Shown here: positions 17,501 through 20,500 of the stretch, one piece after another
How positions within the stretch are numbered: the first letter of the stretch is position 1
How the letters are laid out: each line of letters starts with the position of its first letter
Assembly (NCBI RefSeq): GCF_965641715.1
Contig: NZ_OZ282453.1
From: Escherichia coli
Lineage (GTDB): Bacteria; Pseudomonadota; Gammaproteobacteria; Enterobacterales; Enterobacteriaceae
Length of the DNA stretch: 64,000 bases
Strand: one strand, 5' to 3'
Made by a program: the position numbers

Positions 17501-20500
17501 AGGGATAACGCTGATCATCCGTGCGGTCATCGCCTGATGCGACGCTGACGCGTCTTATCATGCCTACAAAATATGCCCGAATCGTAGGCCAGATAAGGCG
17601 CTTGCGCCGCATCCGGCATATAGCCGAGTAGAGGCAAAATTACTCTTCCCGGCCTTTACCCATACTTTTTTGGTCTTCATCCGGATAGTGTTTTTTTAGA
17701 TATTCCAGGACGTTTTTATTGACCTTATGTTGGGTATACACCCACCCTTTCCAGTAATCAGGCTGGTCCAGGTAAACTTCTGGCGGAATGGTGAAATCAG
17801 AAAGCGTTAACCATTCGGCTAACAGATCGGGGTTTCGTTTCTGTATCAACTGCAACAGCATAATCAGCGACATGGCAGAGGCAGGAGCCGTACTATCGCC
17901 GCTTAAATACTTCCACACTGTCGACCGGTTCGAACGAAAAAGGATCGGTAGCAATGCCCGGTCCAGATTCATTTCATTAAAAATCTTCTCAAATTCATTC
18001 ATTTAAATTTTCCTGCCTAGCGTAAACCTCTTAAAAATTGAGATTTATCAAAGAAACGCATTTTAGCACACATCAGGAACCGCTTCACGTTTAGTCCAGA
18101 AACAGAATTTATTTCGCTTATCAAAACAAGTCTTTACTCTTTTTTACGCTAAAATAGCACAAAATGATTTTCAAAATTATTTACTTAAGAAACCAATTCG
18201 GTTTCTTATAGACAGTGTTTACGCTTACACAAGACAAAAACGCGCTTTACATCACACAAATGGCGGCGTAGATTTCGATTAAATTGCAACGCAAATTAAC
18301 TCCAATAGAAATATTATTGGTTTCTATTAGAAACCAAAATAAACTTAATTTGATCGAGAAAAAATAAATGAAATCTGTAAAGTTGTCTTTACTGGCAGTC
18401 GTTGTTGCTACCATTGTGAGCCCATCTGCTTTTGCAGATGATACGGTTGAAGCGGCAGCGACAGAACTGACAGCGATTCACCCAGGTATGTCTCATGATG
18501 AAATCGATCAAAAAATCAATCGCTTCATGATTCGGACAGGTAATACAGAAGCCGCGCAAGATTACCTGTTTTCTCATGGATATATGGACCCACAGACAGG
18601 CGATAATATTTACCCTGCCAGTACAGCCGTACAGACTGACAGCAACGTCACCGACCAAAACCAGGCTGATCGCGACGCGGCGCAAGATACCGCAATTCAG
18701 AACGCACACAATATCGCAAGCATTGCGGCGGCAAATGCAGATGACGCCAAAAAAGCGCTTACCACTGCGCAATCTGCAATTGATGCGAACAAGGGAGCTA
18801 TTGCTGATACTCAGAAAGATGTCGCAGATGTTAAAGCAAGCGCCGCTCATGCCAACACAAACGCCAATACCGCCCTGATGAATGGCCTGAAACTCTCCGG
18901 TGCCGTGAGCGACAACAAAAACCAGATTGAAAAAAACAGCTCCTCTATTGCTGAACAGCAGGAACAGATGGCGTTAAGTGAGCAGAACCAAATACATCGC
19001 GATGCCGCACAGGACTCGTCAATTCAGGATGCCCAGCACTCTGCTAACTGGGCTTCGCTTAAAGCCGATGACGCGCACCATGCCATTATGGTGGCGCAAA
19101 CGGATATCGACGCCAATAAGTCGGCCATTTCCGACACACAAAAAGATGTTGCCGCTGTCCGCACCGATGTGAGTGCAATGAAAGATGATGTCGCAGATGT
19201 TAAAGCAAGTGCCGATCATGCCAACGCGAATGCTAATACCGCGCTGATGAATGGCCAGAAACTTTCCGGTGTCGTCAGCGACAACAAAAACCAGATTGAA
19301 AAAAACAGTACGGCGATTACCGAACAGCAGGAACAAATCACTGCCACGCAAAAAACCGTTGCCGCCACGGGTGATGTAAAGACCGCTGCTCGTTATCAGA
19401 GCATGATTAACGCTCTTCAGACAGCCACTGCTGATGCGCAACAATCACAGTCTGAAGCCCAACAAACGCAGATTACAGAGCAACAGAAGCAGATCGCAGC
19501 CACAGAAAAAACGGTCGCTGCAATTGGCGATCCCCAGTCAACTGCGCATTATCAAAAGATGATTAATGCCAAACTGACGGCGCAAAATGAAGCCAATGAA
19601 CGTTCAACCGCTGATCAGGAGCAGAGAATTAATGAACTGGCTTCCAATGTCGCGACGCAAGAGCAAATCGATAGCGTGCAATACGGTGAACAAATTCGAA
19701 ACCTTGCGCAAGACTCGGCCCAGGCACATGAGCGAATCGAAAGTCTGACACAAGATTCTGCCCAAACGCACCAGCAGTTAACAAACACGCAAAAACGTGT
19801 TGCAGATAACAGCCAGCAAATCAATTCGCTCAATAACAACTTCAGTTCGTTGAAACACGAAGTGGAAGATAACCGTAAAGAGGCTAATGCGGGTATTGCG
19901 TCAGCCGTCGCTATTGCTTCACAGCCTCAAGTTAAGACAGGTGATTTTATGATGGTGTCTGCCGGGGCGGGTACATTCAACAATGAATCTGCGGTATCTG
20001 TCGGTGCTTCGTTTAATGCTGGAATTCATACGGTAATTAAAGCGGGAGTCTCTGCGGATACACAATCTGATTTCGGCGCGGGTGTCGGCGTGGGGTATTC
20101 GTTCTAATTTTAATAGCAATTTCTTATTATACTCTAAATAATTCGAGTTGCAGCAACTTGAAGTATGACGGGTATAGCAATATTCCGCAGTTTATTTAAG
20201 GTTAACAATGATGAATAGCTCCATTAAATCGTTTTCCCTGCTGGCGGTTATATTACTGGCTGGCTGTAGCTCACCCGCTTCCCGCATCGCAGATTGCCAG
20301 GCGCAGGGCGTCAGCCATGACACCTGTTATCTCGCAGAACAGCAGCGCCAGACGGCTATTTTAAGTACTTCCGAAGCGCAGGCATTTAAAAATGCAGAAG
20401 CCGCACAACATGCCCAGGCGGCAAAGAAAGCCATTTATAAAGGATTTGGCATGACCTTTAGAATGAGCAGTAAAAACTTTGCTTATCTCAATGATTCATT

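What the first reader, a model, noticed from the sequence alone, without database searches (positions are those of the whole stretch)
18003..18367. AT-rich divergent promoter region with two perfect palindromes sharing a GGTTTCT/AGAAACC core
The 365-bp region between the 120-aa ORF and the autotransporter gene is very AT-rich by eye. It contains AAGAAACC-aattc-GGTTTCTT (18187-18207) and TTGGTTTCTA-t-TAGAAACCAA (18317-18337). Two perfect palindromes with a shared half-site in one intergenic region are unlikely by chance and look like operators for a dimeric regulator, possibly the divergent 120-aa protein. The AT-richness also suggests H-NS silencing of the adhesin.
Basis: seen in the sequence. 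Interest (0 to 1): 0.5.

Follow-up and report, generated by a model that had tools for sequence, protein, structure and literature searches.

The report
Conserved operator sites controlling an adhesin
The two palindromes are real, conserved regulatory DNA sites built from a repeated GAAAC word, and most likely bind the small helix-turn-helix protein encoded next door, which is always paired with a surface-adhesin gene; this is an ordinary kind of gene switch in a little-studied E. coli island.

Summary
Both perfect palindromes are at the stated coordinates, the region is 31% G+C, and two such palindromes sharing a core arise in about 0.2% of shuffles.

The locus is O-island 29 of pathogenic E. 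coli, lying between ybbJ and cueR. Comparison of 10 Escherichia and about 10 other enterobacterial loci shows that the conserved unit is the pentamer GAAAC/GTTTC, not the perfect palindrome.

P1 and P2 are two copies of one 27-bp composite, GAAAY-N7-GTTTC-N5-GAAAC. One sits at about -92 to -66 and the other at about +28 to +54 of a conserved adhesin promoter. Further GAAAC sites lie on the promoter of the divergent 120-aa gene.

That protein models confidently as an XRE-type helix-turn-helix. It is paired divergently with a YadA-anchor adhesin gene in most genera examined. In Hafnia loci with divergent regulator alleles, the repeated motif differs.

Best reading (about 0.55): these are operators for this cognate regulator, which autoregulates and represses or tunes the adhesin operon, probably through a loop. 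This is inferred; no binding was tested.

Verdict: a new member of a known kind, of moderate interest.

The parts
17640..18002 (-). [not shown]
18053..18069 (-). Predicted promoter core of the HTH gene. On the minus strand it reads GTGCTAAAAT, an extended -10 (TG at 18068-18067, TAAAAT at 18065-18060). Site a, GAAAC at 18053-18057, covers about -4 to +1.
   Evidence: The AAGAAAC-N-ATTTTA(C/G)CAC block is conserved in 10 loci from several genera, and also in L015, L016, L018 and L027. The transcription start is inferred from the -10.
18089..18115 (+). Site b unit, GTTTA-gtcca-GAAAC-agaattt-ATTTC. YAGAAAC at 18097-18103 is conserved across genera and lies about -46 to -50 of the HTH promoter.
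18186..18215 (+). P1 palindrome (18186-18208) within the 27-bp composite GAAAC-N7-GTTTC-N5-GACAG (18189-18215), at about -92 to -66 of the adhesin promoter
   Evidence: Both arms are invariant in 10 Escherichia sequences while the spacer and flanks vary. In other genera the conserved form is GTTTCY-N3-RGAAA.
18246..18274 (+). Predicted sigma-70 promoter of the adhesin operon, TTTACA-17-TAGATT, with the inferred start near 18281
   Evidence: GCTTTACATCACA...GGCGTAGATT is nearly invariant in all genera.
18286..18290 (+). Site f. It reads GCAAC here and GAAAC in other genera. It is the first of three same-strand sites spaced 22 bp apart, at about +6.
18308..18337 (+). 27-bp composite GAAAT-N7-GTTTC-N5-GAAAC (18308-18334) containing the P2 palindrome (18317-18337), at about +28 to +57 in the predicted leader
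   Evidence: AGAAAC at 18329-18334 is invariant in all genera. The left arm is conserved mainly in Escherichia.
18368..20107 (+). 579-aa trimeric-autotransporter-type protein with a signal-peptide-like N-terminus, a coiled-coil region and a YadA anchor. It is the ortholog of z0639, published as 'gmrA'.
   Evidence: Pfam YadA_anchor, E = 1.2e-10. Weak coiled-coil hits only. Primer mapping.
20208..20830 (+). Downstream genes of the module: a 140-aa lipoprotein (z0638 ortholog, 20208-20630) and a 67-aa ORF (20627-20830)
   Evidence: The same gene order is found in other genera.

Best explanation

- It represses its own promoter, because sites a and b bracket and overlap it.
- It represses or tunes the adhesin promoter.
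- It does the latter by bridging the 27-bp unit upstream (P1, about -92 to -66) and the 27-bp unit in the leader (P2, about +28 to +54). This forms a loop of about 128 bp around the promoter and a roadblock downstream of the start.

What is shown: the sites exist, are enriched, are positionally conserved, and travel with the regulator gene, and the protein has an XRE HTH fold.

What is inferred: that this protein is the binder, the direction of regulation, the looping, and the transcription start sites.
For: 1. Conservation. The half-sites are conserved while the spacers and flanks vary, both within Escherichia and across Pseudocitrobacter, Symbiopectobacterium, Kosakonia/Kluyvera-type, Lelliottia and other loci.

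2. Enrichment. GAAAC is enriched 5- to 10-fold in every close locus, and RGAAAC in the window, L015 and L016.

3. Spacing. Ten same-strand pairs lie exactly 22 bp apart, against 0.2 expected. Three leader sites sit at fixed offsets of +40, +62 and +84 from the -35.

4. P1-to-P2 distance. It is 127-129 bp in 8 of 9 close loci and 139 bp (+10) in L007. It stays at 128 bp in L012 even though the promoter there is displaced by 21-22 bp.

5. Fold. The protein is an XRE HTH: pLDDT 90.3, with top matches HigA2, Aca2, Aca1, MqsA, C-proteins and cI.

6. Pairing. The regulator sits divergently next to a YadA_anchor gene, across roughly 230-410 bp, in most loci examined. These sit in different chromosomal contexts and go down to about 32% protein identity.

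7. Motif tracks regulator allele. Hafnia alvei (L018) and Hafnia paralvei-type (L027/28) loci are flanked on one side by the same genes. L018 carries TGATAA palindromes; L027 carries RGAACA repeats including a perfect 9-bp-arm palindrome, and L028 carries the RGAACA repeats with that palindrome degenerate. This fits a cognate binder rather than a host factor.

Against: - The two palindromes have opposite half-site order, and a simple symmetric dimer cannot read both the same way.
- Outside Escherichia the left arm of P2 and the left arm of P1 are often degenerate, so dimer-type symmetry is weak.
- The Hafnia motifs were picked after looking at the data, and their P values do not survive correction for all hexamers.
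- The protein matches no curated HTH sequence family above threshold.
- The transcription starts are predictions.
- Reported osmolarity, pH, temperature and growth-phase control of the adhesin mRNA points to host regulators acting here as well.
Confidence: 0.55

Rival explanations
1. [not shown]
For: Adhesin (gmrA) mRNA falls with added NaCl or KCl, away from pH 7 and in stationary phase (PMC5826968). GAAAC sites are spaced 22 bp apart. GTTTC-N5-GAAAC has G at -7 and C at +7 with an AT-rich centre, and the P1-right site is centred near -73. The motif comparisons with OmpR and Fis are from my memory of those consensus sequences and were not computed.
Against: - No TTTAC-type partner half-site lies 10 bp upstream of the GAAAC sites; where one exists the spacing is 9 bp (read).
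- Positions +/-3 of the Fis consensus are not matched.
- The pentamer is far more sharply conserved than Fis sites usually are.
- In Hafnia loci flanked on one side by the same genes, the repeated motif changes with the regulator allele, although host OmpR and Fis should be nearly identical.
- The sites travel with the module into different genomic contexts.
Confidence: 0.2
2. P2 works as an RNA hairpin in the 5' leader of the adhesin mRNA, affecting stability, translation or binding of an RNA-binding protein. It would not be a DNA operator.
For: P2 lies at about +36 to +57 of the predicted transcript. The centroid fold is the P2 hairpin at -9.2 kcal/mol.
Against: - The leader folds no better than shuffles (z = -1.2).
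- The left arm is not conserved outside Escherichia.
- 4 of 10 Escherichia sequences carry an uncompensated T-to-G change in the stem, and no compensatory pairs were seen.
- The same word recurs upstream of the promoter, where it is not transcribed in this direction.
- The hairpin does not cover the ribosome-binding site.
- There is no Rfam match.
Confidence: 0.05
3. The region is simply an AT-rich, horizontally acquired promoter silenced by H-NS, and the palindromes are incidental products of low-complexity AT-rich sequence.
For: G+C is 0.31 in a strain-variable island. Reported expression is low at 30 C and maximal at 37 C. H-NS silencing of other E. coli trimeric autotransporters (UpaG/EhaG) is reported, from memory.
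Against: Dinucleotide-preserving shuffles rarely give such palindromes (0.2-0.7%). The half-sites are conserved while neighbouring AT-rich bases drift, and their spacing is fixed. H-NS may well act here too, but it does not explain the motif.
Confidence: 0.1

Closest known systems
XRE-family local regulators with operators in their own or a divergent promoter (R-M controller C-proteins, Aca1/Aca2, HigA2, MqsA, P2 C)
   Same: The protein is small (about 110-130 aa). It has an N-terminal five-helix HTH followed by a short helical C-terminal part. Several inverted-repeat sites overlap the regulator's own promoter and the neighbouring promoter.
   Different: No curated sequence family is matched; the only Pfam hit is MqsA_antitoxin at E = 0.08, below the cut-off. 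The partner is a surface adhesin operon rather than a toxin, a restriction enzyme or an anti-CRISPR. The sites form 27-bp three-half-site units with 22-bp same-strand spacing instead of simple dyads. Binding is untested.
O-island 29 of EHEC O157:H7 and 'GmrA' (z0639), Yang et al. 2018, PMC5826968
   Same: It is the same locus: between ybbJ and cueR, with the same three genes. The paper's primers map exactly onto the orthologous ORFs of an O157 genome.
Loop-forming repressors with operators on both sides of a promoter (GalR, AraC O2-I1, DeoR); from established knowledge
   Same: Two related operator units flank the promoter. Their distance is conserved at about 128 bp, with a +10-bp variant.
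   Different: The protein family is unrelated, and looping here is only inferred from spacing.
AllR operator TTGGAAAAATTTTCCAA between allR and gcl, in the same window (4431-4447)
   Same: It is a perfect palindrome in a promoter region next to its regulator gene. It serves as an internal example showing that such palindromes mark operators.
   Different: It is a single symmetric site for an IclR-family tetramer, with a different motif and protein. Its identity as the AllR site is from memory, not tested here.

Membership tests
XRE / Cro-C1 type HTH transcription regulators (for the 120-aa protein) | Five-helix lambda-repressor-like HTH fold | tested here: met
   [not shown]
XRE / Cro-C1 type HTH transcription regulators (for the 120-aa protein) | Match to a curated HTH sequence profile (Pfam HTH_3/HTH_31 and similar, or NCBIfam) | tested here: not met
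   The only Pfam hit is MqsA_antitoxin at E = 0.082 and 13.5 bits against a cut-off of 30. No NCBIfam hit. No PDB sequence hit below E = 0.79.
XRE / Cro-C1 type HTH transcription regulators (for the 120-aa protein) | Sequence-specific binding to repeats in its own or the neighbouring promoter | not testable with these tools
   Conserved sites are present at both promoters. The repeated motif differs with regulator clade in Hafnia.
Trimeric autotransporter adhesins (for the 579-aa protein) | C-terminal YadA-type membrane anchor | tested here: met
   Pfam YadA_anchor, E = 1.2e-10, residues 520-579, full profile length.
Trimeric autotransporter adhesins (for the 579-aa protein) | N-terminal Sec signal peptide and a coiled-coil stalk; a head domain | tested here: inconclusive
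   The N-terminus MKSVKLSLLAVVVATIVSPSAFADD looks like a signal peptide by eye. Weak SMC/Rad50-type hits indicate a coiled coil. No head or neck Pfam domain was found. No signal-peptide predictor was run.
'GmrA' transcriptional activator (PMC5826968) | Orthology of the window's 579-aa ORF to z0639 | tested here: met
   The deletion, cloning and qPCR primers for gmrA map to the YadA-family ORF of an O157:H7 genome (L002 3380-4396). The z0640 primers map to the 120-aa ORF. The loci are syntenic.
'GmrA' transcriptional activator (PMC5826968) | A recognisable DNA-binding domain in the protein | tested here: not met
   No HTH or other DNA-binding family in Pfam or NCBIfam. The only matches are sub-threshold hits to SMC, DndD and Rad50, typical of coiled coils.
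OmpR-type tandem binding sites | 20-bp sites made of two 10-bp half-sites (TTTAC... then GAAAC...), arranged contiguously | tested here: not met
   GAAAC repeats are 22 bp apart, but no xxxAC half-site lies 10 bp upstream. At P1 the TTTAC is 9 bp upstream, and at P2 the partner is GTTTC. The consensus is from memory; no matrix scan was run.
H-NS-silenced horizontally acquired promoter | AT-rich, strain-variable DNA; H-NS occupancy | not testable with these tools
   G+C is 0.31. The island is present in 1413 of 5426 complete E. coli genomes. Occupancy data are not available here.

The most novel reading that the evidence does not exclude
Probability: 0.35. Interest if true: 0.6.

Novelty: new member of a known kind. 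Interest (0 to 1): 0.42.

Why it matters
O-island 29 is carried by about a quarter of complete E. coli genomes, including O157:H7, O145:H28 and neonatal-meningitis, uropathogenic and avian pathogenic lineages.

- The analysis gives a concrete, testable wiring diagram for the island: which protein is the likely regulator, which bases it should read, and where the promoters are.
- It flags that the protein described in the literature as the island's transcription factor has the sequence of an outer-membrane adhesin.
- If the regulator-operator pairing holds, the clade-specific half-sites (GAAAC, GAACA, TGATAA) offer a small natural system for studying how HTH specificity and operators co-evolve.

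Tried and rejected
- **Rfam.** A scan of 17500-18600 found only weak REP-derived naRNA4 hits outside the region and a spurious microRNA hit on P2.
- **RNA hairpin for P2.** Rejected as the main reading.
- **Known E. coli operator types compared by eye, from memory.**
  - Cra, RbsR and PurR use GAAAC|GTTTC with no spacer, and KdgR uses a 3-bp spacer. Neither fits N5 or N7.
  - The RcsB box TAAGA-N4-TCTTA has the same outer bases as P1, but P1's spacing is 13.
  - CueR and other MerR sites lie inside promoter spacers and have a different sequence.
  - GntR-type TGGT-N3-ACCA does not fit, and the GG/CC extension is not conserved.
- **Dam and phase variation.** The only GATC (18353-18356) is not conserved.
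- **Mobile-element ends.** The palindromes lie inside the island, not at its edges.
- **First structure model.** With 13 sequences it was poor (pLDDT 60.7) and was not used.
- **Genome-contig scan.** It returned only 4 loci, so most comparative loci came from exact protein look-ups.
- **P0027.** The hit of the family profile to this 2772-aa protein is a type IX secretion repeat protein and is probably spurious.
- **L019, L020 and L026.** L019 and L026 are contigs of about 1.5 kb, and no adhesin gene was called next to the regulator in L020 or L026, so these loci were uninformative.

Full report
**1. The observation**

The sequence is as described. P1 is TAAGAAACC-aattc-GGTTTCTTA at 18186-18208. 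P2 is TTGGTTTCTA-t-TAGAAACCAA at 18317-18337.

The 365-bp gap separates a 120-aa ORF on the minus strand (17640-18002) from a 579-aa ORF on the plus strand (18368-20107). The 579-aa ORF ends in a YadA-type anchor. G+C falls to 0.31, against about 0.5 on either side.

Tests against chance:
- Four of the eleven AGAAACC heptamers of the 64-kb window lie within these 150 bp.
- RGAAAC occurs six times against 0.47 expected.
- In 30,000 dinucleotide-preserving shuffles of the region, 0.74% gave two non-overlapping perfect palindromes with arms of at least 8 bp. Only 0.23% gave two that also share a hexamer.

**2. Where this is**

The window is E. coli chromosome; the best match is 99.3% identical over the island. 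The gene order is tesA-ybbO-cnoX-fetBA-qmcA-ybbJ, then the island, then cueR, followed by type I secretion genes.

The island is O-island 29 of O157:H7 EDL933, which carries z0638, z0639 and z0640 (PMC5826968). The intergenic region is found in 1413 of 5426 complete E. coli genomes. In most of them it is only 84-89% identical to the window, which makes it useful for footprinting.

**3. What is conserved**

Ten Escherichia sequences were aligned. They include O157, O145, several other E. coli lineages, E. whittamii and Escherichia sp. E1V33.

- In P1, AAGAAAC (18187-18193) and GTTTCT (18201-18206) are invariant. Five of the seven spacer bases and the bases on both sides vary.
- In P2, AGAAAC (18329-18334) is invariant. 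GTTTCT has one variable base, T/G at 18323. The centre and both flanks vary.
- The inner G/C pair of P1 and the outer GG/CC pairs of P2, which make the window's palindromes so long, are peculiar to its lineage. Most E. coli have TAAGAAAC-N7-GTTTCTTA and TGTTTCT-tat-AGAAACA.

Homologous loci from other genera were then added: a Pseudocitrobacter MAG, Symbiopectobacterium, a Kosakonia/Kluyvera-type locus, two metagenomic enterobacterial loci, Lelliottia and one more. These show the following conserved blocks:

- An AAGAAAC block followed by ATTTTA(C/G)CAC. On the minus strand this reads TGnTAAAAT, an extended -10 for the small gene.
- YAGAAAC at 18097-18103.
- The P1 region, whose universal form is GTTTCY-N3-RGAAA.
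- A nearly invariant GCTTTACATCACA...GGCGTAGATT. This is the promoter-like TTTACA-17-TAGATT found by the scan at 18246-18274.
- Three same-strand GAAAC/GAAAY sites at fixed offsets of +40, +62 and +84 from the -35. P2's right arm is the last of these.

Exactly 22-bp spacing between same-strand sites occurs ten times in ten loci, against 0.2 expected. These loci are related, so this measures conservation, not independent events.

**4. Resolving the geometry**

P1 (GAAAC-N7-GTTTC) and P2 (GTTTC-N5-GAAAC) have opposite half-site order. A symmetric dimer could not read them alike.

Pattern searches of the window resolve this. Both window matches to GTTTC-N5-GAAAC, and three of the five matches to GAAAC-N7-GTTTC (one mismatch allowed), fall in this region. 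They overlap to give three-half-site units:

| Unit | Coordinates | Sequence |
|---|---|---|
| P1 unit | 18189-18215 | GAAAC caattcg GTTTC ttata GACAG |
| P2 unit | 18308-18334 | GAAAT attattg GTTTC tatta GAAAC |
| Related unit | 18089-18115 | GTTTA gtcca GAAAC agaattt ATTTC |

So the two palindromes are the perfect left pair of one copy and the perfect right pair of the other copy of a single 27-bp element.

With the start inferred near 18281, the P1 unit covers about -92 to -66 and the P2 unit about +28 to +54.

The distance from P1's GTTTC to P2's GAAAC is 127-129 bp in eight of nine close loci. It is 139 bp in Symbiopectobacterium, one helical turn more. In locus L012 a 22-bp unit is missing downstream of the promoter and 21 bp are added upstream. 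The promoter has therefore shifted relative to both units, yet their mutual distance is still 128 bp. This points to an interaction between proteins bound at the two units.

**5. The neighbouring protein**

The 120-aa protein has no curated family. The only Pfam hit is MqsA_antitoxin at E = 0.08, and there is no NCBIfam hit.

Its family is very small: 23 proteins at E <= 0.001 among 1.84 billion representatives. With 23 aligned homologs, AlphaFold2 gives pLDDT 90.3.

In most loci examined the gene faces a YadA_anchor gene across roughly 230-410 bp. This holds down to about 32% protein identity in Hafnia, and in several different chromosomal sites. In Serratia fonticola only the lipoprotein and the small ORF remain.

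**6. Who binds?**

This cannot be shown here. The argument for the cognate protein rests on four points: its fold, the strict pairing, sites on its own promoter, and a comparison within Hafnia.

Hafnia alvei (L018, regulator P0024) and Hafnia paralvei-type loci (L027/28, regulator P0028) are flanked on one side by the same genes but carry different regulator alleles and lack RGAAAC enrichment. L018 has TTGATAATTATCAA and TTATCATGATAA. L027 has AAGAACATT-a-AATGTTCTT plus further RGAACA copies; in L028 that palindrome is degenerate but the RGAACA copies remain. A host factor would not be expected to change its motif between such close hosts.

Caveat: these motifs were chosen after inspection, and their individual P values would not survive correction for all hexamers.

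**7. Direction of regulation**

The published experiments help here (PMC5826968).

- Deleting z0640 does not copy the gmrA deletion phenotype.
- The adhesin gene complements from a fragment that starts at AAAGAAACGC and lacks z0640. It also acts in K-12.
- All three island genes fall together on contact with HeLa cells, which fits a shared control region.
- Control by temperature, pH, osmolarity and growth phase implies that host factors act here too. H-NS, OmpR and Fis are candidates, and I keep them as rivals or additional layers.

**8. A discrepancy in the literature**

Mapping the paper's primers onto an O157:H7 genome gives exact matches:

| Gene | ORF | Position in L002 |
|---|---|---|
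| gmrA / z0639 | YadA-family ORF | 3380-4396 |
| z0640 | 120-aa HTH ORF | 2651-3013 (minus strand) |
| z0638 | lipoprotein | 4481-4903 |

The protein published as a transcriptional activator with a putative DNA-binding domain begins with a signal-peptide-like sequence and ends in a YadA anchor. It gives only sub-threshold coiled-coil matches to SMC, DndD and Rad50. Those matches may be what a domain search reported, though this is inference. No paper in the searchable library links GmrA to its autotransporter nature or analyses this intergenic region.

**9. Comparison and verdict**

The system works like a small XRE-type local regulator with multiple operators in a divergent control region. 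Comparable cases are C-proteins, Aca proteins and HigA/MqsA-type antitoxins. It may also resemble loop-forming repressors.

Membership of the XRE fold class is met by structure but not by curated sequence profiles.

The arrangement is a new member of a known kind. New elements are the family, its dedication to adhesin operons and the 27-bp unit. The principle is not new. Interest is moderate.

An internal control supports the approach. Another perfect palindrome of the window, TTGGAAAAATTTTCCAA at 4431-4447, sits between allR and gcl, where the AllR operator is known to lie (its identity is from memory).

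Noticed in passing
[not shown]
   Followed up: yes
window 4431-4447: The perfect palindrome TTGGAAAAATTTTCCAA lies between allR (4500-5315, minus strand) and gcl. This is where the AllR operator is expected, so it is a useful internal example of a palindromic operator.
   Followed up: partly
window 24576-45365 (minus strand): A single intact 6929-aa ORF lies beside the HlyD/ABC type I secretion genes (21238-24572). The corresponding RTX-like exoprotein is reported as frameshifted in O157:H7 and EAEC 042 (PMC2808357). A perfect palindrome, GGTGACTTTGACAAAGTCACC at 24717-24737, lies inside its 3' end.
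   Followed up: no
window 17503-17654: REP-type repeats, giving weak sub-threshold Rfam naRNA4 hits on both strands, lie between ybbJ and the 120-aa gene at the left edge of the island.
   Followed up: no
L018 (Hafnia alvei) 2270-2557; L027/L028 (Hafnia paralvei type) 2193-2500: These loci are flanked on one side by the same genes but carry different regulator alleles and different repeated motifs in the shared intergenic region. L018 has TGATAA palindromes. L027 has RGAACA repeats with a perfect 9-bp-arm palindrome; in L028 the palindrome is degenerate but the RGAACA repeats remain.
   Followed up: partly
window 18368-20107 versus L001, L002, L003, L004: The adhesin varies greatly in length between strains: 579 aa here, 436 aa in O145, 338 aa in O157, and 349-379 aa annotated elsewhere. 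This is apparently through gain and loss of coiled-coil repeats, while the 120-aa protein is almost invariant. In some genomes the annotated adhesin start is far downstream, which suggests disruption.
   Followed up: no
L024/L025 (Serratia fonticola type) 1504-2842: A distant homolog of the regulator sits next to qmcA/ybbJ homologs with the lipoprotein-like and small ORFs but without a YadA-anchor gene. The adhesin appears to have been lost there while the regulator was kept.
   Followed up: no
L015 (Lelliottia wanjuensis) 1-2141: Two YadA-anchor genes lie in tandem downstream of the regulator homolog.
   Followed up: no
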